Source: a virus
Taxonomy: Duplodnaviria > Caudoviricetes
Reading direction: 5' to 3' (one strand)
DNA: 52,485 nt
Virus record (IMG/VR): IMGVR_UViG_3300033145_000528
Location: 1 to 52,485 of that record
The stretch's first letter is position 1, and every line of letters starts with the position of its first letter. The position numbers were made by a program, and so were the translations under genes. Under the pieces are notes generated by a model, which was not told where the DNA came from, did not search any database, and saw only the letters and a program-made list of their open reading frames with translations. Of this stretch, positions 15,847 through 50,148 are shown piece after piece.

Positions 15847-16376
15847 CAGCAGAAGAATACATAACACAGCATTGGATACCAAATAGGACTTGGGAACATC
15901 TTGGGTGGGCAAAACATCAGAAAAGGCTAAGACTGTGTACCGAGCCGTTAATAGGTACTACATTCGCTGATGTCGGTTGTGCGTGTGGGCACTCCACCAA
16001 GATAATGCAAGGATTTAAGAACGGAACATGGCATGGGGTAGACTTCTCGGAAACTGCCATAAAAATGGCAAGGGAATTGTTCCCCGAACTGACATTTTCT
16101 GTGGGACTTGATGGGGCGATATTTGATTCAATAGTCTGTTCTGAAGTTATTGAGCATGTGGAGGATAATGAAGCGTTTATAGGTTCTTTGATAAAAGCAA
16201 CAAAACATGTCCTACTATTAACCACACCGGCAACCAATGTTGACGATCCTGGACACCTGAGGTTGTATAATTTGGGTATGCTAACCGAATTAGTACAAAA
16301 ATACGGGGATTTCAATATTAGGACTGAGGATGGGTATTATTACATCATTGTTAGGAAGGATGAGCAAAATGGTTAA
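15843..16376 (+). CDS. Class I SAM-dependent methyltransferase
   Basis: DVGCACG, GVDFS, FDSIVCSEVIEHV, LTTP, H.RLY. Confidence 0.88.
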   Translation: MTAEEYITQHWIPNRTWEHLGWAKHQKRLRLCTEPLIGTTFADVGCACGHSTKIMQGFKNGTWHGVDFSETAIKMARELFPELTFSVGLDGAIFDSIVCSEVIEHVEDNEAFIGSLIKATKHVLLLTTPATNVDDPGHLRLYNLGMLTELVQKYGDFNIRTEDGYYYIIVRKDEQNG

Positions 16377-16911
16377 TCGTAATGCCAAGAAATTATTGTT
16401 TGCAGTAGCGGACGCCTGCGAAGAGGTAGGATTGGACTATTTCCTTTATGGGGGCACATGTCTGGGCGCAGTAAGGGAAAAGCGATTTATAAAAATAGAT
16501 AGGGATGTGGATTTCGCCTGCCTATTAGAAGACCTCGCACCGGTTGTGCTTGAATTGAACAAAATACTAATGAAAGCAGGGCTGGATACTGAAATTGTTG
16601 ACCATCGTCATTTTGCTAAATGGGATGGGAGCGTGTATGCTATGAAGTTTGCGGGATTTGGGGAACACGGGGAGATAGCCGCATTCAAACGGCACGGGGA
16701 TAAGCGTGTTATACCATCACATGCGGATAAATACTGGTTGGTGCATAATGCACGTTTCCTTGAGGAACTCAGAACTATAAAATTTTATGGGCGCGCATTC
16801 CATGTTCCTAAGGATACAGATGGGTTCTTGACTGAGAAGTATGGGGATTGGAGAACGCCGCATACGAAATTTTATAACGTATCAAAATGTAGAATGGATA
16901 AACTACCGTGA
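16369..16911 (+). CDS. licD: LicD-family phosphotransferase
   Basis: YFLYGGTCLGAVRE..FI..DRDVD and F.G..F.VP...FL..KYGDWRTP. Confidence 0.88.
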   Translation: MVNRNAKKLLFAVADACEEVGLDYFLYGGTCLGAVREKRFIKIDRDVDFACLLEDLAPVVLELNKILMKAGLDTEIVDHRHFAKWDGSVYAMKFAGFGEHGEIAAFKRHGDKRVIPSHADKYWLVHNARFLEELRTIKFYGRAFHVPKDTDGFLTEKYGDWRTPHTKFYNVSKCRMDKLP

Positions 16912-17345
16912 TATTTGGTTATACTGCAGGTGCATACGACCTATTTCATGTTGGTCACTTGAATATATTACGTACTGCCAAATCCATGTGTGACAGACTG
17001 ATAGTGGCGGTATCAACGGATGAGCTGGTAGAATTATATAAAGGGCATAAGCCAATTATACCATTTAAACAAAGGCTTGAAATAGTCAGGGGTATATGGT
17101 ATGTGGATAGTGTCGTACGCAGGAATGAACGGAACATATACAAGGAATGGACAAGAATACATTTCAATAAAGTATTTGTGGGGGATGATTGGGCGGATGA
17201 TAAGCAGTGGAATGAATGGGAAATGCAGCTTAAAGAGTATAGTGTGGATATTGTCTATTTACCCAGAACACCTGATATATCAACTACTACGATTATCCAA
17301 ACTATACTTCAACACAAGCGAAAACACCATAAGGTAAGGAGATAA
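16908..17345 (+). CDS. Glycerol-3-phosphate cytidylyltransferase-like protein (TagD family)
   Basis: YTAGAYDLFHVGH, VAVSTDE, VGDDW, YLPRTPDISTT. Confidence 0.9.
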   Translation: MIFGYTAGAYDLFHVGHLNILRTAKSMCDRLIVAVSTDELVELYKGHKPIIPFKQRLEIVRGIWYVDSVVRRNERNIYKEWTRIHFNKVFVGDDWADDKQWNEWEMQLKEYSVDIVYLPRTPDISTTTIIQTILQHKRKHHKVRR

Positions 17346-22394: not shown

Positions 22395-22654
22395 CTTCTA
22401 CCTTTCCAGGATTATTCACATTAGACGAATTGCTAAAGATGGGGATAAGGCAAAGGGGGTACTGGTTGAGGCAAGCTGGCGCTCTTAGACGGCAATTCAT
22501 AGCAGACGTGAGTTATGGTGTGAGAATTGGCATGGCTGATTCAAAAGATTATCAGAAAGCGATAGATGACTTGGAATTAACAGATAGGAAAGACGATTTG
22601 AAGGCTAATATGTGGGATATATTGAGTTTGTTAGGTGGTGGTAAGGGTGTTTAA
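22352..22654 (+). CDS. Tail assembly chaperone -1 frameshift extension (gpGT-like)
   Basis: A AAA AAC heptamer at 22352-22358 in the correct phase; the -1 frame is open from there to the stop at 22654. Confidence 0.8.
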   Translation, partial: KKRPKGRSEEVPQIASTFPGLFTLDELLKMGIRQRGYWLRQAGALRRQFIADVSYGVRIGMADSKDYQKAIDDLELTDRKDDLKANMWDILSLLGGGKGV

Positions 22655-25250
22655 TGTAGGGTCGGTACAAGGATATTTAAAGCTCAATACTACTGGATGG
22701 ACAAGTAGTATGGGGAGAGCTAATGCCTCACTGCAATCCTTATCTCGCTCATTCACACGATTCGGGGCAATGGCAGTTGGCTCTATCACACTGCTTACCC
22801 GCGAATACGGTAAATTTGACAAGGCTATACGGCATGCCACCAGTGTTAGTGAGCTAAGTGAGGCACAATTCAAAACAATGTCCAATATGGCGCTGGATGC
22901 CTCCATTAAATGGAATAAGGCTGCTACCGATACCGCACAGGCATTTTATTTTCTTGGGTCGGCGGGATTAACAGCTACCGAGCAAATGCAGGCATTTAAT
23001 GACACCATTATGCTATCACGAGCTATGGGAAGTGAATTGTCCATGACTGTCGAGGGATTGGTGGATATTGTTAGAGCATTCGGGTTGGAATTTGAGAATA
23101 CGGGTCATATTGCAGATATACTTGCCAAAACAATAGTAAGCTCCAATCAAAATTTCATGGACTTGGATAAGGCATTATCATATGCAGGCGCTACGGCTGC
23201 CTTTACCAATAACACGCTTGCCGAAACAACCGCTATGCTGGGTGTTATGGCTAACGCAGGCATAAAAGGCAGTATGGCGGGTACTGTGTTAAGGCGTGCT
23301 ATAGCTAACCTTATATCCCCTACTACAGAAATGCGGGATTTGATATATCGGCTGGGTTTGCACATATATGATACAACTGGGCAGATGAAGCCATTCATAG
23401 AAATTATAGGGGAAATAAGTGACAAAATGGCGGGCACAACCGAAGAGTTCCGCAATATGGTGTTTAAAGTGTTGTTTGGGGTTAGAGCTATTGGTGGGCA
23501 GATAGCACTGTTTAATTATGGCTCGAGAGCATTAAGACGGTATGCAGATGAGATAGAGAATGCTGGTGGGACTACGGAGCGTGTGGCAAAGAAACAAATG
23601 TTGGCATTCACGGAGCAATTAGGTCAATTATATAGGATAGCACAAAAACTGGCTATTATGCTCGGAGATACACTTGCATCATCATTGCTGAAAGTGATAG
23701 ACAGGATTAAATATAATATCAAGGCATTTGAGGATTATGTTAAAGTGAACACTAAAATAGTAGCGGAATCATTGAAGTGGGTAACGGTTTTGGGAGTATT
23801 ATCTTTGACAATCCCTCCACTGCTGCTTGTTATCACGGGGCTCACTAACCAATTCTTATTACTCACAAAAGCCATTGCTGGATCGGCATTAGCATTGGTA
23901 ACCAATCCCATTACGTGGCTTGTAGCGGCATTATATACATTAAGGGCTACTTTAATGAGTGATTTTTGGAAACAAGCATTGGAAAGTAAAATAATACCAT
24001 TCTTTGAAGACTTTGGCGATATAGGAGTACAAACTATTACCCAAATCATGTGGGAATTTTCATTATTACCGCAGTTTATTGGTAAAGTATTGAATAGAGT
24101 AAGTGATTACATAAAAGGTTCTGCAAATCAGGTTAAATTATATATAAAAGGCATAACGCATCTGGATATAGAAAGTCTGATACAGGCGGCTGGTATGAAT
24201 AAATATTTGCGTGAATTACTCTCAGGAGAACCAAAAGGGTTTATGGATGTGTTATTTGGTGGTGACGAGGAAGCACGCAAAGCATCATATCAAAGCTATG
24301 TGAATGACCTGAAAAACGTAGGAAAGGAGATAGTCTGGACAGGCAAAGACATTGTCAGCAACTTCGCAGAGACGATGGAGAAGGCAATCACGGAGGATAT
24401 TGGTAACTTGAGTAAATTATTGGCGGGACTTGCCAAGCATCTTCCTGCGCCATTTATGGCAGCTATAGAGGAGATAATAGAAGCAGTTGATGAACTTGGG
24501 AATATATACCGTATATTTATGGAAAAGCCGCCTGTATTGCCAGGCCTTGGAATACCTCCCGCACCAAGTGTTACGCCAGAGTTAACAGCCGCCTATGAAG
24601 AATATAAAGCACTTCTCATAGAGCAAATGAAGAAAGTGCAAGCCTCTATGAAACAACCATCTATATGGGCGGAAAGATGGGAAGAGGGGCTAAGAAAAGC
24701 GATATTTAATTTACGGAATTGGGAAGATGTATTTGCTGACGTGAATATGGGGATAAAAACTGGGTGGTCAGACACCATAAGCAGTTTTCTCAACGATACT
24801 TACATAGGAGCAAGGACATTTGAGAACCTTATAACCAATATGTTCACGACAGTATTACATAAGTTCAACGATTTTGTAGCAGAGGTGCTGGCAAGCGATT
24901 TGTGGTATGCTTTATTTGGTGGCGGTAAAACGATGGAGTTTGGTACTGCCACATTTCTCTTTGGGGGCAAAGTAGCCAAGAGCAGGCGGGATCCAGGTTG
25001 GTTACTTGACCTTCAGCGGACAATACCATATACTGCCCCATCGAAAGACTATTATACCCCGGAGCTATCCACTATGGGGTCACAAAAAGCTGCTGTAGGT
25101 AGTACGGTTATCAACATCACTAACAAAGGCACCCCAGTTACTTTGAAAGAAACCAGCCGTGTATTTGATGGTAGACGGTGGGTGATTAATGCGGTTATGA
25201 GTGAGCTTAATACAAATCCAGCATTTGCTAAGACGGTCAGAGGGGGATAA
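22647..25250 (+). CDS. Tape measure protein (TP901-type)
   Basis: AGLTA, MANAGIKGSMAGT.LR, G.MKPF; long helical protein; GTG start likely at 22647. Confidence 0.92.
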   Translation: MFNVGSVQGYLKLNTTGWTSSMGRANASLQSLSRSFTRFGAMAVGSITLLTREYGKFDKAIRHATSVSELSEAQFKTMSNMALDASIKWNKAATDTAQAFYFLGSAGLTATEQMQAFNDTIMLSRAMGSELSMTVEGLVDIVRAFGLEFENTGHIADILAKTIVSSNQNFMDLDKALSYAGATAAFTNNTLAETTAMLGVMANAGIKGSMAGTVLRRAIANLISPTTEMRDLIYRLGLHIYDTTGQMKPFIEIIGEISDKMAGTTEEFRNMVFKVLFGVRAIGGQIALFNYGSRALRRYADEIENAGGTTERVAKKQMLAFTEQLGQLYRIAQKLAIMLGDTLASSLLKVIDRIKYNIKAFEDYVKVNTKIVAESLKWVTVLGVLSLTIPPLLLVITGLTNQFLLLTKAIAGSALALVTNPITWLVAALYTLRATLMSDFWKQALESKIIPFFEDFGDIGVQTITQIMWEFSLLPQFIGKVLNRVSDYIKGSANQVKLYIKGITHLDIESLIQAAGMNKYLRELLSGEPKGFMDVLFGGDEEARKASYQSYVNDLKNVGKEIVWTGKDIVSNFAETMEKAITEDIGNLSKLLAGLAKHLPAPFMAAIEEIIEAVDELGNIYRIFMEKPPVLPGLGIPPAPSVTPELTAAYEEYKALLIEQMKKVQASMKQPSIWAERWEEGLRKAIFNLRNWEDVFADVNMGIKTGWSDTISSFLNDTYIGARTFENLITNMFTTVLHKFNDFVAEVLASDLWYALFGGGKTMEFGTATFLFGGKVAKSRRDPGWLLDLQRTIPYTAPSKDYYTPELSTMGSQKAAVGSTVINITNKGTPVTLKETSRVFDGRRWVINAVMSELNTNPAFAKTVRGG

Positions 25251-26602: not shown

Positions 26603-26996
26603 TGTTAGCCACTTTGTGGGAACGCCCTTTGTGAATGGTGGAAGAAATAAAACATCGGGACTCGATTGCTGGGGGCTTGTTATGGAAGTGTTTAAGGAAT
26701 GTGGGATACAATTACCAGACTTCAGGGTTAATGCATTTGCTTCATCTAAAATAGACGAACTTGCCCATGAGGCAATAGGATTCTCACCATGGGAAGAAGT
26801 GTATAGTCCACAGGACGAAGATGCACCATTGGTCGTGTTGATGCGTATACACCCAAGTTTGATTGCGCATGCTGGGGCATACATAGGTAATAATAGGATT
26901 ATACATACTATGGAAGGCACAAACGCCGTCATATCAAGGGTTTCAAGGTTAAAAAGTCGTATTGTGGGGTATTATAGATATGTTCAAAATAACTAA
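26595..26996 (+). CDS. NlpC/P60 tail tip protein (gpK-like)
   Basis: GTPF..GGR...GLDCWGLV, HAGAYIG...IHT. Confidence 0.88.
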   Translation: MVNVSHFVGTPFVNGGRNKTSGLDCWGLVMEVFKECGIQLPDFRVNAFASSKIDELAHEAIGFSPWEEVYSPQDEDAPLVVLMRIHPSLIAHAGAYIGNNRIIHTMEGTNAVISRVSRLKSRIVGYYRYVQNN

Positions 26997-29900
26997 TATA
27001 CTTAATCCACTTACTGGCGGAGCTACTACAACAGAATATAAGTTGGAAAAGGGCGAACCATTATCAACATACATGGGATATAGGGAAGAGTGTGTGGTTA
27101 TGTATAATGGGGGGATAATTAGCTTGCCTGTGGATGAGATATTTCCTGCCGAGAACGATGAATATTTGGTCATGCCTATACCAACTGGAGGGGATGAAGG
27201 AACATGGCGGTCACTGGGGCAAATAATGGGAACAGCCACAAGTTTCATACCGGGCGCCTGGATATTACCCCTTACATTCGCGGGAGCCAACCTACTCTTC
27301 TACTTCCTACGAGAAAAGGACAAAGACCTATCCACATCCCCATCTTATTCATGGCAGCACAGAGGCAATCCATCAGCTGCACATGGCTCGGCAATGCCAA
27401 TCATTTACGGTAAGGCAAGAATTAGACCAGTATTGAAGAATCGTTACGTGAAGATAGATGGGGACAGACAAAAATTGTATGCCCTATATTCTATTGCAGC
27501 ACACAGGGTTGATGAAAGGACAGATGTATATACGTATGCGCAATTTGTACATGAAATAGGGGTACGTGGGACTGCAGCGCTGTACGGTGTGGAATATTCT
27601 ATGCCAGTCGCTTATGGCGAGTTACCCGCAGTACCGGGTGCAACACTCTTCCACCCAACCACATATAAAAATGGCATACCGGGACACGGCATGGCATCAT
27701 TCTATAACGATATTGTGATAAACGGGCGGTCAATATCAACTTATGGCGATGATGTACAATGGGAGACACGACCCGGGCTGGCTGCACAAACTATTATTAC
27801 GGGGTTTGAAGCAACGTACAGTAACATCCCAGCAGATATAGAACTTTATTTAGAAGCACCAGAGGTAAGCATGGATGCAGTAAATTTAGTGTATAGTGCT
27901 GAGTCTGGCAGGATAAAATGGAGCGCCCACACAATAAAATTCAATGGAATAGAAGTTGATATAGTAAAGGGCAGTCGTGCTGTAGAGTTCGACCATGATT
28001 ATTACCTTCATTACCGCCCAACCATATCAGCTAATAGATACTATACATCAGATAATGTTGTACCAAGTAGTGTAGATAGTTATATAATAGCGAAGTTCCA
28101 AGTAGCGCCAGCCAGTGATAAATTTCACGTGTCAGATCGCGCTATTTATGACAGGGATACATATAAAGAGTTGCCATCTGGTAGCAATTGGATTTACCCA
28201 GTTACACTAATTCAAAACGCACACAATATAGAACTTACACTCACACTCCCGCATGGGCTATTCACCGCTGCTGCGGGGGAGAATATAATGGACGGTGAGT
28301 GTAGGATATTCGCTCAGTACAGGGTAGAAAATACAGATACATGGACTAATTTTGATTTCAATTTTGCGGAGTCAGTAGACCACTCCAGAAACTATGCAAA
28401 TAATATAAACGCCGGTATAATAACCAGAGTAACCACCAAACCCATAAATCTCTCTATAAGGGCTGTGCCAGAGACGGAACCGCTTACTTACGGGGCAAAT
28501 TACGAAATGCGGGTGGCTGCCAGCTCTACATCATTAGTGAAATTAGTTAATGTAGCAAAAATAGTTTATGGGGAAGAGGACGCCAATGGTAAAAGACAAG
28601 GATTCACGTATCCCGGTGAACCATTACTTGGTATTAAAGCTCTGGCATCTGGACAAATCAGCAGTGACCTTGACGTACAGGTAGATGTGGAAAGAAGTAA
28701 AGTATGGGTGTGGAATACACGCCTCGCAAAAATACTTACCACAGTCAAGATAACACTTTATGCAACCACTAACTACATTCGTATTAAAGGTTGGTATGGG
28801 GACTGGGACGACTTTCAGGTAGGGCAGCTTATTATGATTAGTGGTGCGGTATTAAATAATGGGGTAAACAATGGTATGTATAAAATTAAAGATAAAGCGG
28901 CAAATATGCCCGCTGGTTATCACATTCTATACCTTGATAGTGATTATAGCACTATTACGATTAATGAAAATGGCGCCATGACTACGCGGATGACACTTGC
29001 TCAGGGTTGGGTGCAGGGTGATGCGAATATTCATGCATGGGCTGTTTACGATATATTGGTAAACGGGTATTACAATAGTGATACTGGCTTTTGCCATCCC
29101 ACGTACCCCTACGCAGGGAATGAAAATGGAGAAGCGGTATATGGCTGCGGAGTCAATCCTGCCTACATTGATTACGAGTCATTTAGGGAGTGGGCAGAGT
29201 ACACAGGGTATGATGGCCTCAAGTACGAGTTAAACATCGTTTTTGATACGTTTATGACAGCGTGGGACGCTATTCTACGTATATGTCAGGAAGGTAGGGG
29301 GATTGTTTATCCAGTTGGTACTAAAATCTACGCTATGGCATATCGGGATAGTGATCCTGTACAGTTATTTACTATGGGTAATATTCACGCAGATACGTTC
29401 GCACAAAAGTATATGGAGTCAAGGCAACGAGCTAACATGCTTGAAGTTAAGTATTGGGATGAGGAACGTAATTACGAGGAGACAGTATTGGCTGCAAGGA
29501 CGGAAAATTGGGATAGTGATGCAAGTCTTAACAAGCCAACCAGCATAACACTATATGGTACTACGAATTATAGTCAGGCATATCAGACTGCCCGATTTAC
29601 CATGCTCATGGAAGAATTGCTTAATAATATTATAACATTTGGCGTAGATGTGGATTCATTAGCTTCACAGGTTGGAGATGTGGTGGAAGTAGGGCATGAC
29701 GTATTGGGAACTGGAAGCAGTGGAAGAATAGTATCATATACTGATTTGAGTGGTTCAACCAATAGCGTTACACTGGACCGTACTGTAACCGCCGCTGTTG
29801 GGGATGTGCTACAGGTTAAACACTCGGACGGCACCATCGAGTCTAATACTGTTGATGCGGCCACTACCTCAGCCACATTACACTTTGCTACAGCATGGAC

Positions 29901-30405
29901 CACGGCTCCTGCCCTTCACGATATATATTCGCTCGGTACACCACAAAAATACCGTATCATAGAAATAAGCAGGACGGATGAACTCATGCGAACCCTGACT
30001 CTTATGCAGTATGATGAGAATGCGTATATTACAATATCAGATGATGATAATGATGGGGAGTTCTCGCTGCCTAAACTTGTACCGCCAAGCACATCAGTAG
30101 GGGATGTGGCTAATATACTTAATCTTGCGTCTAATGTCAAACTACAGGAAGTCGTATCAAGGAACAGAACGACGGGCGAATATGAGCCGAGTGTGGTTGT
30201 AACATTTGATTCTATGCCGCCGCCAGCCCCCAGAGGCACGTGGGAGATATATGTTCGGGATGTAGATGCAAGCGATATTAATTGGAAAGGTACATGGGAG
30301 GACAATACGGTCTATGACACCCATGAGAAGGTAGAATTGAATGGTAAGACATTTATAAGCTTGAGTGATAACAATACGACTACACCATTTAAAGTAGGAG
30401 ATTGA
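26980..30405 (+). CDS. Central tail tip/host specificity protein (gpI/gpJ-like), N-terminal part
   Basis: SPSYSW..G.AMPIIYG, YP..LLGIK.LAS.Q.S, P.QLF..GNI, VGDVVEV.HD; ends partway through an FN3-like domain. Confidence 0.85.
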   Translation: MFKITNILNPLTGGATTTEYKLEKGEPLSTYMGYREECVVMYNGGIISLPVDEIFPAENDEYLVMPIPTGGDEGTWRSLGQIMGTATSFIPGAWILPLTFAGANLLFYFLREKDKDLSTSPSYSWQHRGNPSAAHGSAMPIIYGKARIRPVLKNRYVKIDGDRQKLYALYSIAAHRVDERTDVYTYAQFVHEIGVRGTAALYGVEYSMPVAYGELPAVPGATLFHPTTYKNGIPGHGMASFYNDIVINGRSISTYGDDVQWETRPGLAAQTIITGFEATYSNIPADIELYLEAPEVSMDAVNLVYSAESGRIKWSAHTIKFNGIEVDIVKGSRAVEFDHDYYLHYRPTISANRYYTSDNVVPSSVDSYIIAKFQVAPASDKFHVSDRAIYDRDTYKELPSGSNWIYPVTLIQNAHNIELTLTLPHGLFTAAAGENIMDGECRIFAQYRVENTDTWTNFDFNFAESVDHSRNYANNINAGIITRVTTKPINLSIRAVPETEPLTYGANYEMRVAASSTSLVKLVNVAKIVYGEEDANGKRQGFTYPGEPLLGIKALASGQISSDLDVQVDVERSKVWVWNTRLAKILTTVKITLYATTNYIRIKGWYGDWDDFQVGQLIMISGAVLNNGVNNGMYKIKDKAANMPAGYHILYLDSDYSTITINENGAMTTRMTLAQGWVQGDANIHAWAVYDILVNGYYNSDTGFCHPTYPYAGNENGEAVYGCGVNPAYIDYESFREWAEYTGYDGLKYELNIVFDTFMTAWDAILRICQEGRGIVYPVGTKIYAMAYRDSDPVQLFTMGNIHADTFAQKYMESRQRANMLEVKYWDEERNYEETVLAARTENWDSDASLNKPTSITLYGTTNYSQAYQTARFTMLMEELLNNIITFGVDVDSLASQVGDVVEVGHDVLGTGSSGRIVSYTDLSGSTNSVTLDRTVTAAVGDVLQVKHSDGTIESNTVDAATTSATLHFATAWTTAPALHDIYSLGTPQKYRIIEISRTDELMRTLTLMQYDENAYITISDDDNDGEFSLPKLVPPSTSVGDVANILNLASNVKLQEVVSRNRTTGEYEPSVVVTFDSMPPPAPRGTWEIYVRDVDASDINWKGTWEDNTVYDTHEKVELNGKTFISLSDNNTTTPFKVGD

Positions 30406-30406
30406 G

Positions 30407-30964
30407 ATGAATAACCAGATTAGGAAGAAGTTTGTTGTGTGGTTAAGGAGAAAACACCCTGGTACACTTATAAAGATAAGGGATTTTATACTGTATCTTG
30501 TGAGTGCTATGGGAGTAGTGCCTATGAGTGCCACACTCGGGGTAAGGGTGCTGCGAAAAGATGGCACAGTGGAAGATAAGGGGATAGTGAGCACGCACGA
30601 GGTTACGGACGCATTTGTGGCGTATCTTGTAGACTCATTGCAGGGGACAGAAGCCGATTGGATCAATTTTAAGTATCATGATAGCGGTGAAGACGCCACT
30701 GCAGAAGACCCATCTGATACGGCACTTGGTACGCCGTGTGGGGAAGCCAGAGATACTGGTACGCAGATTGAAGGAGCTGCTAACATCTACAAGTCGGTTG
30801 CCACCCATACCTATGCCGGTACATTTGCCATAGTGGAGCATGGACTGTTTAATGCTTCGGCCAACGGCACACTTATGGATAGGTCGGTGTTTAGCGTTAT
30901 CAATGTAAATTCTGGGGATAAGGTGGAATTCACGTACCAATTGACTTGTAACTCGGGAGGATGA
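30407..30964 (+). CDS. Hypothetical tail-associated structural protein
   Basis: F.YH.SG..E...DTAL, I.EHGLFN....GTL.DRSVF..INV..GD...FTY.L pattern. Confidence 0.6.
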   Translation: MNNQIRKKFVVWLRRKHPGTLIKIRDFILYLVSAMGVVPMSATLGVRVLRKDGTVEDKGIVSTHEVTDAFVAYLVDSLQGTEADWINFKYHDSGEDATAEDPSDTALGTPCGEARDTGTQIEGAANIYKSVATHTYAGTFAIVEHGLFNASANGTLMDRSVFSVINVNSGDKVEFTYQLTCNSGG

Positions 30965-30969
30965 CCAAT

Positions 30970-32733
30970 ATGAGAAAATTACTATTATGTATATTGTTAT
31001 TGTTTTTGGTTGTGCCTGTTACGTCCTACGGGCAGTCGGGTTATACACTGCGTTCATTCTCCGCCAACATGGATTCATTACAAAGCGGGTTGACTGGTAA
31101 TATATCCGCAGAGAATTTAAGGGACGCTATTGCTTCATTGTGGAAAGGGGATTTGCCAGATAGCATCGACTTATTACTGAATTCTGCCAGAAACGAGTTT
31201 ACTATAGGTAATTTTGGAAACACAACGATTACAACGCTTGACAGTCTTGGCATCGGGACGGCAACTCCTGAAGCGAAGTTGCATGTTTCAGGTGGTGTGG
31301 GTTTGTATGACAGTGATAGAAGCATAACTTCTTTGCATCACATAGTAGACAAGAAGTATGTGGATGAAGCCGTAACTGCACTGGGGGCAAGGTATTATAT
31401 GCTCGACACTAACTCTGGAACAGCAGATTACAAACTCTGCTCCCTGACTCCGTCTGCTGGTGCGGAACAGGACACAAGCATGACATCTCTGTCGAATGAT
31501 GATTATATTCTCGGCTGGATTTCTCCAAACGCTAATGAACCAGAAAAGCTGATAACTGGAGTTTACAACTGGCGATTTTATGCCGAGAAAACAGCCGGCA
31601 CGGAAACGTTAAGACTATATTGGAAATTGGTTGAGCGGAAAAGCGATACTTCAGAGGTTATTGTTGGAACTTCCGTTGTTAGCAACGAGGTAACATCTGG
31701 CAAGAACTCGTATATCATTCCCCTAACCATATCGGCAGACCATGATTTAGCAAGTGATAGTTATGTTGTGGGAAAACTTTATGCTGATGTGTCTGGAAGT
31801 GGTTCAGCACCGAGTATTACTTTGTATTATGAGGGAAATTCTACTTCTCACTGGGATATACCCGTTAACACAGAGATACTTGACGGCAGGTATGTTAATG
31901 CTGATGGCGATACGATGACTGGTGCGTTGACTGTGCTTAATAATATACAGGCAATAAAATCTGGTGTAACAGGATTTATAAAAGTTGGTTCGGATGATGC
32001 GGAAAGTGGGGCATTTTATGCTTATGGTGATGACGCCAACATTGGTGGGCAATTAGTGTTATGGAACTCTCTGAATGAAGATACCAATTACGAATATTAT
32101 GATTTCTGGTCAAACGGTGACCAGCTCGATATGACAGCAGGGGGTAATGATATAGTTACATTCTATGGGAATGGCAATTTCACAATAACAGGTACAACCG
32201 CAACCAAAGCCTCTGGTACAACATGGGCAGAAGCATCTGACATACGTATTAAGCAAAATATCGCTGACATACAAGACGGATTAGAGAAATTACGCAACAT
32301 ACGACCCGTGAGCTTTAATTATACAGAAAAATGGGTAGATAATAACCCAGCTCTTGATACCACTACTCTACATCGGGGATTTGTGGCTGATGAACTGGAA
32401 ACCACACTTCCAAAATCCGTTGGGGTCATACCGAAAATATATAAGACAATTAAACAAGCAGTACTGGATTCAACAGGGAAAGTTATTGAGCCTGAAGTCC
32501 GTGAACTCCAATACACCGATTTAAAAACAATTACAACGCATGATGTAAATGTACTGGCAATCGCAGCTATCAAAGAACTTGATACCAAAGTTCAGGAGCT
32601 TGAAGAAAGAATAGAGATATTGGAAGCAAATCAAAAAGAAACATCATACACCCCAATAGCCCTTATGGTGGGGACTGGAGTGCTGGCAGGTTTAGCTGGA
32701 CTTTACAAACGGAGAAAATCCAACAATGCCTAA
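30970..32733 (+). CDS. Tail-fiber-like protein with peptidase S74 intramolecular chaperone, N-terminal signal peptide and C-terminal transmembrane anchor
   Basis: MRKLLLCILLLFLVVPVTSYG; LGIGTATPEAKLHV fiber repeat; ASDIRIKQNI..LEKL..IRPVSFNY..GFVADEL; coiled coil; PIALMVGTGVLAGLAGLYKRRK. Confidence 0.8.
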   Translation: MRKLLLCILLLFLVVPVTSYGQSGYTLRSFSANMDSLQSGLTGNISAENLRDAIASLWKGDLPDSIDLLLNSARNEFTIGNFGNTTITTLDSLGIGTATPEAKLHVSGGVGLYDSDRSITSLHHIVDKKYVDEAVTALGARYYMLDTNSGTADYKLCSLTPSAGAEQDTSMTSLSNDDYILGWISPNANEPEKLITGVYNWRFYAEKTAGTETLRLYWKLVERKSDTSEVIVGTSVVSNEVTSGKNSYIIPLTISADHDLASDSYVVGKLYADVSGSGSAPSITLYYEGNSTSHWDIPVNTEILDGRYVNADGDTMTGALTVLNNIQAIKSGVTGFIKVGSDDAESGAFYAYGDDANIGGQLVLWNSLNEDTNYEYYDFWSNGDQLDMTAGGNDIVTFYGNGNFTITGTTATKASGTTWAEASDIRIKQNIADIQDGLEKLRNIRPVSFNYTEKWVDNNPALDTTTLHRGFVADELETTLPKSVGVIPKIYKTIKQAVLDSTGKVIEPEVRELQYTDLKTITTHDVNVLAIAAIKELDTKVQELEERIEILEANQKETSYTPIALMVGTGVLAGLAGLYKRRKSNNA

Positions 32734-33211
32734 TGGCAGCTTTGACAGTAGTTTTGACAGTAGTTTTGAAAAAGGTGCATCACAGGCTGTAGGGGGTACG
32801 TTATCCTTCTCTGGGGATGTTGCCAGAGCATTGACTATGTATAGGGCATTTGATGGCACACTCACCCCATCTGGTGTACTAACAAAAGGCATGTATGAAG
32901 CATTTGGCGGCTCAATCTCCCCCAATGGTACGCTATCCGCTGCCATAACTATTATCCAAGCCCTCTGTGGCACGTTGGATCTTGACGGGGCATTATCGGG
33001 TCATAACCCAGATTGGCTACTTATTGACGAGGACTTAATGTGGATGGGTGAATGGTCAGCCACCCACAGTTACGATATTGACGACGTAGTTCTGCACAAA
33101 TACGGTAACGAATGGCACGTGTTTGTGAGCAAGGTGGGACATAATGTAGGGAATGCGCCAAATTCATCAGCAGTACAATGGCACAGGCTTTATCAGGAGC
33201 AATTATTATGA
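32726..33211 (+). CDS. Hypothetical tail-associated protein with G-T-L repeats and a C-terminal carbohydrate-binding-like motif
   Basis: Repeating GTL(S/T).SG units; WMGEWSATHSYDIDDVV. Confidence 0.55.
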   Translation: MPNGSFDSSFDSSFEKGASQAVGGTLSFSGDVARALTMYRAFDGTLTPSGVLTKGMYEAFGGSISPNGTLSAAITIIQALCGTLDLDGALSGHNPDWLLIDEDLMWMGEWSATHSYDIDDVVLHKYGNEWHVFVSKVGHNVGNAPNSSAVQWHRLYQEQLL

Positions 33212-34968
33212 ACAAGACCAATGACAAGAGTACGACTCTCAACCTTAACTTCACCAAAGACCACGAATATGAGGTGAAGGTGGTTGCAGTCGGGCCGGAC
33301 GGTACAAAACAACCTATAGACGAGGCTGCGTGCAACACAATAACCATTCAGGGCAAATTAGACACACCAGACTCCCCAAGCGGGCTTACCACTACTGGTT
33401 TTCTTAATGCAATTTCTTTGTCATGGACTAATCCGCTTGACTATGACCTCGACCATGTGGAAATATGGCGGTCTGACGTCAATAGTGCCGCATTTGCAAG
33501 CAAAATAGCAGAAGTTAAGGGTGTAACGTATTTGGATACGGTTGGGACACCCAATCTCACCTACTATTATTGGATTGAGGCAATAAACACATCAGGAACA
33601 GCGTCTGGTCTCCACCCAAGCACTACTGAGGGCGTTTCTGGGACGTCATTAGGGGTTGAGGTTACGGATATAGATGATTTCGCCATCGATGCTACCAAGA
33701 TGTTTATCAATACCATAATTTTGAGTGCGGATGTATGGACGGATAATAGCCCTGATGCGGGTAAGATAGCATGGAATGCCCACACCATTGTGTATAATGG
33801 CGCATCCTACCCTATTACGGCGGGCAATACGGCACTTAAGTACGTTTATTGGACTGTGGGTAGTACTACGTATTCGGCGTCAGCTACACACCCTGCATTA
33901 GGCACGACAGCCTTCATGATAGCCACCAATGCGGGGGGCATACACACACTTGTATGGAATAATTCCGCTAACATGGTGATTGGGTCGGCGTTCATCATGG
34001 ATTTGGACGTGGATAAACTCGTCGCCAATGCTGCCAGCACCAACGAGTTCGTGTCCAACACCGCCCAGATAAAAAATGGTATTATCAATGATGCAAAAAT
34101 CACGGGGACGTTGACTGTTGGGCATACGGACGCCAAATGTACTGACCCCGATGCTGACCAGACATCAGCTAATCCGCAGCCAGTTAGTTGGCTTACTGAT
34201 GCTGGGGCTATGGCTTATGAAGATTTGGTTGAAAAAGCAAAACTGGGAACAACAATAGTCGAGGGGGGCTACATTAAGACAGACTTGCTGACTGCTGATA
34301 ATATTGTTACGGGTACTTTGACAGGTAGGGTAGTACAGACAGCAGTAAGCGGACAAAGGGTAGTTGTAGATTCTTCTGATAATACAATAAAGTTTTATGA
34401 TTCAAGTGAAAATATTAAAGTTTTAATTGATGATTTAAGTGGTGGTTTTGTGAGAGTTGGACAATCAACTGGTGCAGATGGTGAATCGTGGGTCGACGTA
34501 GAAAGCGGGAAAATAAGTATTTATGATAGCTGGGTGTCTACACTCTTATCACTTCATTATTATAAACCTGCATATCCGGGATTTTATGATTTAATATTGT
34601 TTGAGGTGGGTGCATATGGAAACACTACGATAGGGTCGTCTGAACAGTCAAGCACACTAACTCTAAACGGTGATTTGATTGGAAAATACATTACTACAGA
34701 AAAATATCGAATAAGCCAAACTACTGGTAACATAACAACTGTTGGTACAGTTGACGGAGTGGACATATCATCCCATGACCATACAGGCGTTGCAGGGCAT
34801 GGAGTTAAGATAACTCATAGTAATTTAGACGGTATTGGTGCTAATGATCATCATAGTGAATCCCACTCACTCGGCTCACACAACAATGTAGATATAGTAT
34901 CACCCGCAAATGGGGATGTTTTAGAATATTCGATTGCTGACAGCAAATGGCATAATGTACAACCTTAA
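33208..34968 (+). CDS. FN3-containing tail tip/fiber protein (probable continuation of the J-like gene)
   Basis: YEVKVVAV, P..PSGL, LSWTNP.D.DL.HVEIWRS, YYYWI.AIN.SG..S; VDGVDIS.H.H knob-like C-terminus. Confidence 0.75.
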   Translation: MNKTNDKSTTLNLNFTKDHEYEVKVVAVGPDGTKQPIDEAACNTITIQGKLDTPDSPSGLTTTGFLNAISLSWTNPLDYDLDHVEIWRSDVNSAAFASKIAEVKGVTYLDTVGTPNLTYYYWIEAINTSGTASGLHPSTTEGVSGTSLGVEVTDIDDFAIDATKMFINTIILSADVWTDNSPDAGKIAWNAHTIVYNGASYPITAGNTALKYVYWTVGSTTYSASATHPALGTTAFMIATNAGGIHTLVWNNSANMVIGSAFIMDLDVDKLVANAASTNEFVSNTAQIKNGIINDAKITGTLTVGHTDAKCTDPDADQTSANPQPVSWLTDAGAMAYEDLVEKAKLGTTIVEGGYIKTDLLTADNIVTGTLTGRVVQTAVSGQRVVVDSSDNTIKFYDSSENIKVLIDDLSGGFVRVGQSTGADGESWVDVESGKISIYDSWVSTLLSLHYYKPAYPGFYDLILFEVGAYGNTTIGSSEQSSTLTLNGDLIGKYITTEKYRISQTTGNITTVGTVDGVDISSHDHTGVAGHGVKITHSNLDGIGANDHHSESHSLGSHNNVDIVSPANGDVLEYSIADSKWHNVQP

Positions 34969-34992: not shown

Positions 34993-35226
34993 ATGACCGA
35001 CGTAATAATATCCAATTTAATAACCATAGGTGTCGTTGGTGCAGGGTTCATTGGCAATGCCCTCTACCTGCGTGGCAATTTCGGAGCACGCATTAAGAAC
35101 AACGAGTCCAACATTTCCGCCTTATGGGACGAAAAACAGTCCATTACAACATGTGAAGCAAAAGCGGGCGGCATAGATACACGTGTGTCGAGGCTTGAAC
35201 GTATTAGAAACGGTGGGATAACTTGA
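34993..35226 (+). CDS. Putative holin/membrane protein
   Basis: N-terminal hydrophobic helix plus coiled coil, directly before the endolysin. Confidence 0.5.
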   Translation: MTDVIISNLITIGVVGAGFIGNALYLRGNFGARIKNNESNISALWDEKQSITTCEAKAGGIDTRVSRLERIRNGGIT

Positions 35227-35238
35227 AAGGCGACTCCA

Positions 35239-35679
35239 ATGATACCTAAAATGATAGTCATACATCACAGTTTAACTGCCGACAACCACACAGTCTCATG
35301 GGACAATATAAGAGATTACCATGTAAACGTTAAAGGCTGGAATGACATCGGATACCATTATGGCATCGAGCTTATTGAAGATAGGTATGAAATATTAGTA
35401 GGGCGTATGATGAATGAACAAGGCGCCCATGTCAGGTCTCATAATAACAACACACTCGGCATATGCTTTATTGGGGATTATGACCATTCAGAAGTCCCAC
35501 CAGCCATGTGGAGAAAAGGGTTGCGTCTTGTGGCAAGCCTATGTTATATTCTTAAAATAGAAGCCAGTAATGTTTATGGTCATAGGGAATTTAATAATTA
35601 TAAAACGTGTCCGGGCAGAAAATTTAACATGATTGGTTTCCGTGCACAATTAACACAAAGCATCAGAGAGTTTTCATAA
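35239..35679 (+). CDS. Endolysin, N-acetylmuramoyl-L-alanine amidase (Amidase_2)
   Basis: [35 protein letters not shown]...KTCPG. Confidence 0.95.
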
Positions 35680-35704
35680 ACTCATTAATCACAGGAGGCA
35701 TCAC

Positions 35705-35977
35705 ATGAATTGGGAAACTATAGTGGGCGTAATAACCCATCCCGTAACCGTAACCATAATCACCGCCATAGCCGGAGTATCCTTCAGGGGTTTCGTCAAG
35801 TATAAGAAGGCATTCAAAGCCTTCATAGACATCCCCAGAGCCGTGATAAACTCCCGCAGGGACGGATCAGCTGGCGGCAAACATATAACGGAGGCTGAAT
35901 ATACCCGCATCGGCAAAGAAATTGTAGAATTCATCGAAGAACTGCCACCCTTACTTAAGAAAGGGGCTCATTTATGA
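35705..35977 (+). CDS. Membrane protein (possible holin)
   Basis: N-terminal TM helix, basic stretch; RBS AGGAGG; follows the endolysin. Confidence 0.55.
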   Translation: MNWETIVGVITHPVTVTIITAIAGVSFRGFVKYKKAFKAFIDIPRAVINSRRDGSAGGKHITEAEYTRIGKEIVEFIEELPPLLKKGAHL

Positions 35978-36276
35978 AAATCAACCTCTTAACCCCCATA
36001 ACCGACCTCGACAAAACCCCCATACCAGAAGCTGACGGCAAGCCCATGACACTACGCTCCGTAATTTGCGGCGCACTCGTATCCCAAAAACAGGGAGATA
36101 ACCCACCCGGAATAGAAAAAGTCCGCCGGTACAACCTTGCTACACGGGTATTTGCTTCCGATACAATAGACTTGGGCATCGACGACCTAAAATTAATCCG
36201 TGACCTCGTGGCAGACAGCTATGTAACACTGGTAGTAGGTCAGGTATGGGGTATTCTCGACCCGCCAACATCATAA
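35974..36276 (+). CDS. Hypothetical protein
   Basis: ATGA coupling; EK..RY.LA..V.....DL...DL.LI..LV pattern. Confidence 0.65.
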   Translation: MKINLLTPITDLDKTPIPEADGKPMTLRSVICGALVSQKQGDNPPGIEKVRRYNLATRVFASDTIDLGIDDLKLIRDLVADSYVTLVVGQVWGILDPPTS

Positions 36277-36594
36277 CCGCCCGTAGACAGGACTGCCCAT
36301 TGACACTAAAGATGTAGACGGGGTAAAACACCTAAATTGCACACTACCTAATACATCAACACCACGCCCGGGGTCTAACCCACCTCGGGCTGCTTAATTT
36401 CCCATTCGACCCACCCAATTCCCTGCAACCCACCAACTTACCGCAAAACCACATTATTAATTAATAGTAATACTACCATACCCATTTATTGAAAACTGAA
36501 CACCGCATTTAAGTACCACCATACCATCACTATATTAGAAAGTCATAATAACCCAATAAACGCACGGGGTAGGGGACTGCCCTACGGCTCACGA

Positions 36595-49851: not shown

Positions 49852-49988
49852 GCGGGCTGTGGCGGAATGGTAGACGCAATTTGGGCTAATGATGGAGTGC
49901 GACTATCTGGTGCATTATGGAAAGTCAATGAGCCAAGGTTTGAGTCCTTATAGTCTCTGTCGTACAGGTTCGACTCCTGTCAGCTCGC
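49852..49988 (+). ncRNA. tRNA-like RNA with an enlarged central region
   Basis: Acceptor GCGGGCTG/CAGCTCGC, D-arm GCG-GAATGGTAGA-CGC, T-arm ACAGG-TTCGACT-CCTGT; about 85 nt between the D and T arms; no clear anticodon and no CCA. Confidence 0.75.
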
Positions 49989-50148
49989 ATAAATGGAATG
50001 GCAATTTCATGATACAAAGGAGTGAAGGTTTACTATCAGGTAATAGATTTGGTCAAAGATGCGAATGTGTAGATTGTGGAGCAACAGTAACTCACATATA
50101 CAAGTTGACTTATGAGCAGTCTGTATTTTAAAAAAAAGGGAGAATGGG

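What the first reader, a model, noticed from the sequence alone, without database searches (positions are those of the whole stretch)
30970..32733. Tail-fiber/S74 chaperone protein with a signal peptide and C-terminal membrane anchor
Seen: a Sec-type leader (MRK, hydrophobic core, SYG|Q), a fiber-type motif, an intact S-D-x-R-x-K autocleavage motif (Ser codon at 32236), a coiled coil, then a hydrophobic helix and KRRK. Established: S74 domains trimerise fibers and cleave themselves off, virion fibers normally fold in the cytoplasm, and eukaryotic MYRF uses this domain to release a trimer from a membrane anchor. Inference: a phage-encoded, exported, membrane-tethered trimer that releases itself outside the cytoplasm. 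It could be a receptor-masking or superinfection-exclusion factor, a decoy, or a fiber added at lysis.
Basis: partly seen in the sequence, partly recalled or inferred. Interest (0 to 1): 0.8.

Follow-up and report, generated by a model that had tools for sequence, protein, structure and literature searches.

The report
Exported membrane-tethered self-cleaving phage fibre
A complete phage genome encodes a tail-fibre-like protein with an export signal at the front and a self-cutting folding domain plus membrane anchor at the back, so it is probably assembled outside the cytoplasm and then cuts itself free, which is not how phage fibres are normally made.

Summary
ORF 30970-32733 (+) lies in the late operon of a complete 52,485-bp siphovirus with terminal repeats. 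It encodes, in order:
- a Sec-type leader
- an orphan N-terminal region
- a confidently modelled CBM-like jelly-roll module
- a Peptidase_S74 domain (Pfam E 2.4e-13) with an intact S-D-I-R-I-K motif (Ser codon at 32236)
- a long helix
- a 17-residue hydrophobic segment followed by KRRK

None of 70 other viral S74 fibres had the anchor, and none of 51 had the leader. Both termini recur in a second phage lineage (P0062/L118), where the gene is translationally coupled to an endolysin gene. They also recur in five unrelated S74 proteins. Among the 150 S74 relatives listed, leader and anchor co-occur.

The positive-inside rule puts the passenger outside the cytoplasm. The export-tether-release mechanism is therefore well supported in silico but unproven. 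The biological role is open: receptor or glycan masking, a fibre added at lysis, or an adhesin.

Exported S74 fibres are already known in cells (Bdellovibrio MAT fibres). This scan previously noted leader+S74+anchor proteins in a myxobacterium. I therefore class this as a new, phage-borne variant of a known kind. The host is unknown.

The parts
30955..30960 (+). Shine-Dalgarno GGGAGG, 9 nt upstream of ATG 30970
   Evidence: 41 of 75 genes in the phage have a strong SD, against 6% at random positions.
30970..32733 (+). CDS of the leader-fibre-S74-anchor protein (587 aa + stop). An alternative ATG at 30961 adds MTN.
   Evidence: It is identical to database entry P0002 (587 aa).
30970..31032 (+). 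Sec-type signal peptide, residues 4-24 of the 590-aa frame. Predicted cleavage is after SYG, before Gln25.
   Evidence: A leader is conserved in P0062/L118, P0073 and P0074, with an invariant Pro.
31033..31257 (+). Orphan N-terminal region of the mature protein (residues 25-99). It is predicted helical at low confidence.
   Evidence: No homolog in a word-indexed search of residues 1-105. AlphaFold2 helices 28-76, pLDDT 45-76.
31258..31950 (+). Conserved mobile middle module (residues about 100-330). Its core (31387-31869) is a jelly-roll beta-sandwich.
   Evidence: 42-82% identity to this module in most of the 71 proteins, and in 31 viral loci. pLDDT is above 90 for residues about 140-300. Foldseek matches the CocE/NonD C-terminal jelly roll (E 1.4e-5), and CBM4, CBM22 and CBM11 (E about 3e-3).
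31951..32235 (+). Beta-rich stalk or tip preceding the cleavage site (residues 331-425). It includes a GDTMTG fibre motif.
   Evidence: PHROG tail-fibre profiles start matching at about residue 328.
32236..32421 (+). Peptidase_S74 intramolecular-chaperone domain (residues 426-487). Ser426 codon is 32236-32238 and Lys431 codon is 32251-32253.
   Evidence: A profile match to the solved phage fibre chaperone 6F45 (E 8e-4) and to MyRF ICA 7DC3 (E 0.09) aligns the S/D/R/K motif.
32536..32628 (+). Long C-terminal helix of the chaperone (residues about 526-556), taken to be a trimeric coiled coil.
   Evidence: AlphaFold2 helix, pLDDT 72-79. The coiled coil is inferred by homology to S74 domains and was not computed.
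32656..32706 (+). Hydrophobic, Gly/Ala-rich C-terminal transmembrane segment (residues 566-582).
   Evidence: The 17-mer Kyte-Doolittle score is 1.87. It is helical in the model. An equivalent segment is present in P0062/L118.
32707..32733 (+). Basic cytoplasmic tail KRRKSNNA plus stop. It overlaps the start of the next gene (32726).
26962..30405 (+). J-like central tail fibre, upstream in the same operon.
   Evidence: phrog_31 E 3.7e-60 and PF13550
30407..30964 (+). 185-aa protein whose stop overlaps ATG 30961. Its homologs sit next to ordinary S74 fibres.
   Evidence: phrog_5417. The L054 homolog lies directly upstream of an 898-aa S74 fibre that has neither leader nor anchor. An alternative start at 30524 is possible.
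32726..34968 (+). Two further fibre-like genes (161 aa and 596 aa). Neither has a leader.
34993..36390 (+). Lysis cassette: a 77-aa TM protein, the Amidase_2 endolysin (35239-35679), a 90-aa TM protein and a 100-aa ORF. It ends at the terminator-like hairpin 36366-36390, which closes the late operon.

Best explanation
This is a late-expressed phage protein made as a type I membrane protein.

1. The leader takes the chain through Sec.
2. The C-terminal hydrophobic segment, with its KRRK tail, stops transfer. This tethers the chain to the outer face of the cytoplasmic membrane.
3. Tethering holds three chains together in two dimensions. The S74 chaperone and its helix can then nucleate the trimeric fibre from the C-terminus.
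4. Ser426/Lys431 cut the chain. This releases a roughly 400-residue trimer carrying a CBM-like jelly-roll domain outside the cytoplasm. The chaperone stub (residues 426-590) stays in the membrane.

Shown: the sequence features, their conservation and their co-occurrence.

Inferred: export, trimerisation, cleavage and release.

My preferred role is that the released fibre binds envelope glycans of the infected cell. That would mask receptors or prevent re-adsorption, or otherwise act on the envelope at egress. The alternative is that the fibre is built into virions in the cytoplasm. This last step is a guess.
For: Sequence features:
- The leader has an n-region (MRK), a 14-residue h-region, and small residues at -3 and -1.
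- The anchor has a basic tail.
- Positive charges flank both hydrophobic segments on the side that the positive-inside rule (established knowledge) assigns to the cytoplasm, so the passenger is outside.
- The S74 domain and SDIRIK motif are intact.

Conservation: leader, S74, helix, anchor and basic tail are all kept in P0062/L118/L119. That lineage is 52-57% identical over the C-terminal third, but its passenger is unrelated.

Recurrence: 7 of the 150 best S74 representatives have an anchor plus basic tail, and all 7 keep SDxRxK.
- 6 of the 7 have a leader-like N-terminus. The seventh has one from an internal Met.
- 8 of the other 143 have a leader-like N-terminus.
- Fisher p = 1.4e-6 when my by-eye calls are included. 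With the strict script rule alone (3 of 7) p = 0.009.

Rarity: ordinary viral S74 fibres have neither feature (anchor 0 of 70, leader 0 of 51).

Context:
- In L118 the gene starts at the stop of an Amidase_2 endolysin gene and has its own AAGGAG. It is followed by small multi-TM proteins.
- In the window it lies about 2.2 kb upstream of the lysis cassette, in one operon with no promoter of its own.
- The phage has other fibre genes without leaders (J-like, 596 aa), so adsorption need not depend on this protein.

Precedent: Bdellovibrio MAT fibres carry a signal peptide and an S74 domain. Mutating the catalytic Ser to Ala blocks their processing and localisation (PMC10769870, passages).
Against: - No signal-peptide or membrane-topology predictor could be run, and nothing is experimental.
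- The anchor is only moderately hydrophobic (19-mer score 1.55) and short (17 residues).
- The gene sits in a classical tail-fibre position: J, then the 185-aa protein, then this gene. A homolog of the 185-aa protein precedes an ordinary S74 fibre in L054. This fits a virion fibre.
- PHROG profiles call the C-terminal 40% 'tail fiber'.
- Two of the three close relatives by sequence (P0073, P0074) have the leader but end at the helix without an anchor. The tether is therefore dispensable in some lineages.
- The AlphaFold2 model is confident only for the middle module.
- Host and envelope type are unknown.
- No data bear on what the released fibre binds.
Confidence: 0.5

Rival explanations
1. 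Extracytoplasmic fibre maturation. The protein is exported, tethered and self-released as above, but the free trimer is a true virion side fibre. It docks on tail tips only when holin lesions or lysis bring particles and the periplasmic or wall compartment together.
For: It has a tail-operon position between the J-like gene and further fibre genes, with translational coupling on both sides. A homolog of the upstream 185-aa protein lies next to an ordinary S74 fibre in L054. The mature N-terminus is conserved between P0062 and P0073 just after the leader, as expected of a docking element. Fibres of some phages attach to finished particles as a last step (recalled knowledge, no call).
Against: The window protein's mature N-terminus (residues 25-105) has no homolog at all, so no known attachment domain is present. 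In L118 the gene lies after the endolysin, among membrane-protein genes and not in a tail module. Assembly after lysis would be diluted and inefficient. No precedent was found in four literature searches.
Confidence: 0.2
2. Ordinary cytoplasmic virion fibre. The hydrophobic N-terminus is not used for export (for example, it is buried in the baseplate). The C-terminal hydrophobic segment is simply discarded with the chaperone.
For: Gene position, PHROG tail-fibre matches and the S74 domain are all typical of virion fibres. The anchor's hydrophobicity is modest.
Against: None of 51 ordinary viral S74 fibres has such a leader, and none of 70 has such an anchor. The leader has the length and cleavage-site features of a cleavable Sec signal, not of a structural helix. 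Leader and anchor co-occur across unrelated S74 proteins. Both are conserved in a second phage lineage while the passenger was swapped.
Confidence: 0.15
3. A MAT-like surface adhesin carried by the phage as cargo. The fibre stays associated with the cell surface and changes what the infected cell sticks to. It does not act on phage receptors or virions.
For: Cellular leader+S74 fibres are widespread. Examples are Bdellovibrio MAT fibres and the many earlier notes of this scan. The middle module also occurs on contigs of genome bins labelled Saccharibacteria, Falkowbacteria, Pacearchaeota and Anaerolineales.
Against: The gene has no promoter-like site of its own and is embedded in the late operon of a phage with no integrase or repressor detected. 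It would therefore be made only shortly before lysis. The region after the leader is predicted helical and is an orphan. It is not the roughly 130-residue beta-rich domain that defines MAT proteins.
Confidence: 0.1
4. The C-terminal hydrophobic segment plus basic tail is a sorting signal. A host sortase-, exosortase- or rhombosortase-type enzyme would cleave it and attach the chaperone fragment or the whole protein to the wall.
For: The tripartite look (linker, hydrophobic segment, basic cluster). There is also a sub-threshold NCBIfam match to the LPXTG anchor model (15.0 bits against a cut-off of 15.9) covering only the hydrophobic and basic part.
Against: No LPXTG, PEP, PGF or GG motif precedes the segment in P0001 or P0062. 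No NCBIfam sorting-domain model reaches its cut-off for any of the seven proteins. S74 self-cleavage already provides release.
Confidence: 0.05

Closest known systems
Phage tail fibres and tailspikes ending in an intramolecular chaperone (Peptidase_S74): K1F endosialidase, T5 L-shaped fibre, S16 long tail fibre (PDB 6F45)
   Same: S74 domain with the Ser-Lys motif, a terminal helix, a trimeric fibre upstream, and a gene in the tail operon.
   Different: These have no leader and no anchor and fold in the cytoplasm. None of the 70 (anchor) or 51 (leader) viral S74 ORFs examined has either feature.
Bdellovibrio bacteriovorus MAT (mosaic adhesive trimer) fibres, S74 subgroup, e.g. Bd3182 (PMC10769870)
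   Same: Signal peptide plus trimeric fibre plus self-cleaving S74 domain that acts on an exported protein. The tips are mosaic and swappable (passages).
   Different: MAT fibres are cellular, not phage-encoded. They share a conserved roughly 130-residue beta-rich domain after the leader, which is not seen here. No C-terminal membrane anchor is described: the word 'transmembrane' does not occur in that paper's main text.
Eukaryotic MYRF (PMC3742443, PMC3742440)
   Same: An S74/ICA domain placed just before a transmembrane segment, where autocleavage frees a trimer from a membrane tether (abstracts and passages). A weak profile match to MyRF ICA 7DC3.
   Different: The topology is opposite: the released MYRF part and its ICA domain face the cytosol, and there is no signal peptide. 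Its passenger is a transcription factor, and it is eukaryotic.
Leader+S74+C-terminal-anchor proteins of other lineages (P0158, P0186, P0189, P0205, P0220). A myxobacterial pair was noted earlier by this scan (e1-2951114).
   Same: The same order of parts: leader, passenger, SDxRxK, helix, hydrophobic segment, Arg/Lys tail.
   Different: They are short (281-435 aa), Arg/Ala-rich and at most 37% identical in the S74 region. I could not see their genomic context (one search did not complete). None is known to be phage-encoded.
Envelope proteins encoded beside receptor-binding genes that block the phage's own receptor (T5 Llp; Cor of T1 and phi80). This comparison is recalled from memory.
   Same: An exported protein encoded next to fibre or receptor-binding genes. 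This is the logic behind the masking idea.
   Different: Those are small lipoproteins unrelated to fibres. There is no sequence or structural link, and nothing here tests this function.

Membership tests
Peptidase_S74 / intramolecular chaperone auto-processing domain (PF13884) | Profile match above the curated cut-off | tested here: met
   50.6 bits against a cut-off of 22, E 2.4e-13, residues 426-487, profile positions 1-57 of 58
Peptidase_S74 / intramolecular chaperone auto-processing domain (PF13884) | Catalytic Ser and Lys in an S-D-x-x-x-K motif at the start of the domain | tested here: met
   SDIRIK at 32236-32253. It aligns with SDRRIK of 6F45. The motif definition is as quoted in PMC10769870.
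Peptidase_S74 / intramolecular chaperone auto-processing domain (PF13884) | Trimerisation and autocleavage | not testable with these tools
   The monomer AlphaFold2 model has pLDDT 31-45 over the domain. Testing needs expression of wild type against S426A.
Sec (SPase I) signal peptide | Basic n-region, h-region of about 10-15 residues, small residues at -3 and -1, no lipobox | tested here: met
   MRK, then LLLCILLLFLVVPV, then TSYG|Q. There is no [ASG]-C lipobox. This was checked by hand and by hydropathy.
Sec (SPase I) signal peptide | Score from a trained predictor (SignalP or similar) | not testable with these tools
   No such predictor was available.
Type I (N-out, C-in) single-pass membrane anchor | C-terminal hydrophobic helix followed by a cluster of basic residues | tested here: met
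   17 residues with score 1.87, then KRRK. Helical in the model. Conserved in P0062/L118.
LPXTG or other CTERM sorting signals (NCBIfam) | Signature motif before the hydrophobic segment, and a model score above the cut-off | tested here: not met
   TIGR01167 scored 15.0 against a cut-off of 15.9, matching model positions 11-32 only. No LPXTG, PEP or PGF motif is present. MYXO-CTERM scored 14.2 against 20 for P0186.
MAT fibres (Bdellovibrio type) | Conserved beta-rich domain of about 130 aa directly after the signal peptide | tested here: inconclusive
   Residues 25-100 are predicted helical at low confidence and have no homolog. I held no MAT sequence for direct comparison.
Virion tail fibre | Gene in the tail module, fibre-type repeats, C-terminal chaperone | tested here: met
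Virion tail fibre | Recognisable N-terminal virion-attachment domain, or presence in particles | tested here: inconclusive
   No homolog of residues 1-105 was found. There are no proteomic data for an uncultured phage.
MYRF-type membrane-tethered S74 release | S74 domain upstream of a transmembrane segment, so that cleavage frees the N-terminal trimer | tested here: met
   S74 at 426-487 and the TM segment at 566-582. The topology is opposite to MYRF, so this is a likeness of mechanism and not membership.

The most novel reading that the evidence does not exclude
Some tailed phages run an extracytoplasmic branch of fibre biogenesis. A Sec leader and a C-terminal 'S74 chaperone + coiled coil + membrane anchor' cassette together export fibre-type trimers, assemble them on the membrane and release them. 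The cassette is portable and can be recombined with different passengers. The released trimer either arms particles only at lysis, or coats the dying cell's receptors so that progeny are not lost on debris. Either role would be a new step in the phage life cycle.
Probability: 0.3. Interest if true: 0.8.

Novelty: new variant of a known kind. Interest (0 to 1): 0.55.

Why it matters
Tail fibres are taken to fold in the cytoplasm and join particles there. A fibre-type protein in a virulent phage's late operon that is built to fold outside the cytoplasm, on a membrane tether, and then free itself would mean one of two things. Either there is a new route of fibre assembly, or there is a new class of phage-made envelope factor built from receptor-binding parts.

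It would also show that the 'S74 next to a membrane span' design, known from animal MYRF, exists in phages in the opposite orientation. That bears on where that design came from.

In practice, the leader + S74 + anchor cassette could serve as a self-releasing display or secretion module for trimeric proteins. The mobile CBM-like module marks a large set of uncultured viruses in which 12 of 29 fibre-like proteins carry leaders.

Tried and rejected
Searches that gave little or nothing:
- tblastn of the protein against 50,697 deposited phage genomes found only one distant S74 match, in two records of the same Prochlorococcus phage.
- A single-protein locus search in viral contigs found nothing. 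Alignments were needed.
- phmmer against PDB sequences found nothing. Only the profile search worked.
- The metagenome scan with A4 returned only a second copy of the L118 protein (L119) and one ordinary S74 fibre (L120).

Calls not answered:
- The listing of cluster members. I therefore could not learn the source or context of P0062, P0073, P0074 or the five Arg-rich proteins.
- The protein-atlas search for the 185-aa neighbour.

Host assignment failed:
- The Gln after the predicted cleavage site in P0001, P0062 and P0073 recalls a Bacteroidota habit (recalled, no call).
- Strong Shine-Dalgarno use (41 of 75 genes) argues against that phylum.
- Genome-bin hits of the middle module are spread over unrelated lineages on short contigs.
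- I saw no spanin-like lipoprotein. The endolysin is a bare Amidase_2 domain. The envelope type therefore stays open.

Other:
- The AlphaFold2 model of the 185-aa neighbour was too poor (mean pLDDT 59) for a fold search.
- I did not use complex prediction. Trimerisation of an S74 domain is textbook, and the orphan N-terminus has no alignment, so neither outcome would have moved my odds.
- Rejected as an assembly chimera: the two halves are 82% and 52-57% identical to their nearest relatives, not identical, and the frame is intact.
- Rejected as a lipoprotein: there is no lipobox.

Literature: searches for a phage S74 fibre with a leader or anchor found none. For these I read only listings and abstract starts, plus passages of PMC8878798 and PMC12923769.
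Full report
WHAT IS THERE. The window is a whole virus record of 52,485 bp with direct terminal repeats, rated 100% complete. All genes read on the + strand. It is a siphovirus-type phage.
- Structural genes: small terminase, head decoration and cement proteins, tape measure (22635-25247), and a lambda-like tip (Phage_tail_L, an NlpC/P60 protein, a J-like 1147-aa protein).
- Lysis: an Amidase_2 endolysin at 35239-35679, flanked by two small single-TM proteins.
- Replication: family A DNA polymerase, a D5-type primase-helicase, and others.
- No integrase or repressor was detected in these scans.
- The endolysin implies a peptidoglycan-bearing bacterial host.

The ORF in question is 30961..32733 (590 aa). 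GGGAGG lies 9 nt before the second ATG at 30970, which gives the 587-aa product that the database also holds (P0002). Its start region overlaps the stop of the upstream 185-aa gene, and its last codons overlap the start of the next gene. I found no strong promoter-like site just upstream. The first convincing terminator-like hairpin on this strand is at 36366-36390, after the lysis genes. The gene is therefore part of the late tail-lysis operon and not an independently transcribed insert.

CHECK OF THE OBSERVATION.
- Leader: MRK, a 14-residue hydrophobic core with Pro at -6, then S-Y-G|Q.
- S74 domain: PF13884 at residues 426-487, 50.6 bits against a cut-off of 22.
- Catalytic motif: 32236-32253 translates to SDIRIK.
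- Structural link: a profile of the four closest sequences matches the solved chaperone domain of a phage long tail fibre (6F45, E 8e-4) and, weakly, the MyRF ICA domain (7DC3, E 0.09). The catalytic motif is aligned in both.
- Helix: residues about 526-556 form a long helix in the AlphaFold2 model.
- C-terminus: the protein ends with IALMVGTGVLAGLAGLY-KRRKSNNA.
- Hydropathy: the leader and this segment are the only 19-residue windows above 1.2 in the protein.
- Within the phage: of 79 + strand ORFs, only this one has a leader-like N-terminus.

No trained signal-peptide or topology predictor was available, so these calls rest on hydropathy, charge and the -3/-1 rule.

ANATOMY OF THE PASSENGER. 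Residues 25-105 have no detectable relative and are modelled as helices at low confidence.

Residues about 100-330 form a module that is 42-82% identical to modules in most of the 71 proteins found with the whole protein. It also occurs in 31 viral loci. In those proteins it is embedded in very different architectures, including beta-helix, DUF2793 and laminin-G-like parts.

Its core (about 140-300) is the only part modelled with pLDDT above 90. Foldseek matches it to the C-terminal jelly roll of CocE/NonD hydrolases (E 1.4e-5), to a cyanophage short-tail-fibre binding domain (8KE9, E 9e-4), and to CBM4, CBM22 and CBM11 modules (E about 3e-3). I read this as a glycan-binding-type jelly roll. 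The binding itself is inferred.

PHROG tail-fibre profiles match only residues about 328-561.

IS THE LEADER/ANCHOR COMBINATION MEANINGFUL? There are three lines of evidence.

(a) Background. An alignment-based scan of IMG/VR returned 79 other S74 loci, and I could read the ORF in 71 of them. None of the 70 with a complete 3' end has a hydrophobic segment plus basic tail after the terminal helix. None of the 51 with a complete 5' end has a leader. Eight loci were dropped because my frame extraction failed.

(b) Conservation. The closest relative, P0062 (668 aa), has a leader, an unrelated repeat-rich passenger, S74, helix, a hydrophobic segment and a basic tail. So does its 700-aa variant found in a viral contig (L118) and in a metagenome contig (L119). 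The next two relatives, P0073 and P0074, have the leader but end at the helix.

(c) Recurrence and association. HMMER with residues 396-590 against 1.84 billion representatives gave 5,124 hits at E <= 0.001, of which the best 150 are listed.
- My hydropathy threshold flagged 19 of these. Twelve are just the amphipathic terminal helix, and I set them aside by eye.
- Seven have a true hydrophobic segment followed by an Arg/Lys cluster: the query, P0062, and five short Arg-rich proteins. All seven keep SDxRxK.
- The strict leader rule flagged 11 of the 150, including 3 of the seven.
- By eye, three more of the seven have leaders just under the threshold, and the last has one from an internal Met.
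- Fisher's test gives p = 1.4e-6 with the by-eye calls (6/7 against 8/143) and p = 0.009 with the strict rule alone.

Since related sequences are not independent, these p-values are only indicative. Even so, the pattern (an anchor almost only where there is a leader) is what a real N-out/C-in topology predicts.

CONTEXT.

In the window the order is: J-like, 185 aa, this gene, 161 aa, 596 aa (fibre-like), 77-aa TM protein, amidase, 90-aa TM protein, terminator.

The 185-aa protein has homologs of 150 and 124 aa in two ordinary S74-fibre loci. In L054 the homolog sits directly upstream of an 898-aa S74 fibre with neither leader nor anchor. The locus therefore descends from a normal fibre locus. 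The first 40 or so residues of the 185-aa ORF are absent from those homologs. They contain a hydrophobic stretch, but an internal ATG at 30524 with GGAG 8 nt upstream is an equally good start. I draw nothing from this.

In L118 the homologous gene is not in a tail module. The order there is:
- a giant phrog_5143 protein
- a 133-aa ORF
- a 93-aa TM protein
- an Amidase_2 endolysin, 44% identical to the window's
- the leader-S74-anchor gene, which starts at the endolysin's stop behind its own AAGGAG
- several small multi-TM proteins

In L081, a leader-bearing protein with the middle module (82% identical, no S74) likewise lies between a giant phrog_5143 protein and a lysozyme gene.

Of the 31 module-bearing viral ORFs, 29 could be assessed, and 12 of these have a leader-like N-terminus. 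None has a C-terminal anchor.

The window protein thus looks like a recombinant of two kinds of leader-bearing phage proteins. Leaders on fibre-like proteins are a recurrent trait in this set of uncultured viruses.

HOW IT MOST LIKELY WORKS. Positive charges precede the first hydrophobic segment and follow the last. By the positive-inside rule (established knowledge), the roughly 540 residues between them lie outside the cytoplasm, whether or not the leader is cleaved.

S74 domains need no cofactor. They nucleate trimer folding from the C-terminus and then cut at the Ser (established for phage proteins, and quoted in PMC8878798 and PMC10769870).

A Sec substrate emerges unfolded and as a monomer. 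A C-terminal tether would keep three chains close in two dimensions, and would stop their loss to the medium until the chaperone has done its work. Cleavage at Ser426 would then free the mature trimer (residues about 25-425) and leave an approximately 18-kDa stub in the membrane. This rationale is my inference.

Exported S74 fibres that self-process are documented in Bdellovibrio. Its MAT fibres have a signal peptide, and S782A blocks both processing and localisation. An S74 domain beside a membrane span that releases a trimer is documented for MYRF, with the opposite topology.

I put export, tethering and release at about 0.5-0.6. What the released fibre does is open. I lean towards an envelope-directed role (glycan or receptor binding on the infected cell, at or before lysis) for three reasons:
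- the L118 gene sits with lysis and membrane genes
- the phage has other leader-less fibres
- the mature N-terminus has no known attachment domain

A fibre that joins particles only at lysis is the main rival. Next comes an ordinary cytoplasmic fibre whose hydrophobic ends are incidental.

COMPARISON WITH WHAT IS KNOWN.
- It is a member of the S74 family (profile and motif met).
- It is not shown to be a MAT-family member, because the defining N-terminal beta-rich domain was not seen.
- It is not an LPXTG or other CTERM sorting-signal protein (sub-threshold scores, no motif).
- It works like MYRF only in the sense of 'S74 next to a membrane span'.

This scan had already noted leader+S74+anchor genes in a myxobacterial genome (e1-2951114) and many cellular leader+S74 fibres. 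That note led me to the MAT paper. The new elements here are two: the design is phage-encoded, inside the late operon of a complete and apparently virulent phage, and it recurs in a second phage lineage beside an endolysin.

Four literature searches turned up no description of a phage S74 fibre with a leader or membrane anchor. For these I read listings and a few passages only, so this is absence in what I saw, not proof.

LIMITS.
- The host and envelope type are unknown.
- No predictor for signal peptides or topology could be run.
- The S74 region is poorly modelled as a monomer.
- The sources and contexts of P0062, P0073, P0074 and the five Arg-rich proteins could not be looked up.
- Only the top 150 of 5,124 S74 hits could be examined.
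- There are no experimental data.

Noticed in passing
window 12228-17345: A glycosylation-type gene cluster sits between the capsid genes and the head-tail genes. It holds an 805-aa protein with sialyltransferase/MptE-like and GT2 parts, a second GT2, a SAM methyltransferase, a LicD-family protein and a cytidylyltransferase. It could decorate virion proteins or host surface polymers. Similar methyltransferase and glycosyltransferase genes lie near leader-bearing module proteins in L086 and L099.
   Followed up: partly
window 390-2954: The family A DNA polymerase is split into two ORFs: 390-1637 holds the exonuclease and the first 149 profile positions, and 2208-2954 holds positions 152-381. 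A 121-aa ORF of unknown family (1850-2215) lies between them.
   Followed up: no
window 4716-7262: An 848-aa ORF directly after the small-terminase gene matches no terminase profile in my scans. It carries a LAGLIDADG_3 homing-endonuclease domain (residues 701-756) and a partial match to an intein-bearing thymidylate-synthase PHROG. It may be an intein-interrupted large terminase. This was not verified.
   Followed up: no
window 50149-50694: Strong match to Tad6, a type I Thoeris inhibitor (PF25188, E 5.7e-56). This is an anti-defence gene among the early genes.
   Followed up: no
window 30407-30964; L054 5176-5628; L042 2315-2689: A small beta-rich protein family (phrog_5417) is encoded next to S74 fibre genes in unrelated phages. 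The window's copy has an extra 40-residue N-terminal extension with a hydrophobic stretch, unless translation starts at ATG 30524. The AlphaFold2 model is of low confidence.
   Followed up: partly
L118 6525-11347: In the second phage lineage, the leader-S74-anchor gene is translationally coupled to the endolysin gene. It is followed by three small proteins with 1-4 predicted membrane spans. This is an 'envelope module' whose other members are uncharacterised.
   Followed up: partly
window 31258-31950; L081-L111; L112-L117: The CBM-like middle module is a highly conserved (45-82% identity) mobile unit. It is shared by dozens of otherwise unrelated fibre-like proteins of uncultured viruses. It also occurs on short contigs of genome bins labelled Anaerolineales, Pacearchaeota, Zipacnadia, Saccharibacteria and Falkowbacteria.
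   Followed up: partly
window 31033 (Gln25); P0062 and P0073 N-termini: Three of the four closest proteins have Gln as the first residue after the predicted leader cleavage site. That habit is associated with Bacteroidota (recalled, no call). However, 41 of 75 genes have a strong Shine-Dalgarno sequence, which does not fit that phylum (recalled).
   Followed up: partly
window 49903-49988: A tRNA-Ser (anticodon tga) lies inside the mechanically listed ORF 49889-50128, so that ORF is probably not a gene.
   Followed up: no
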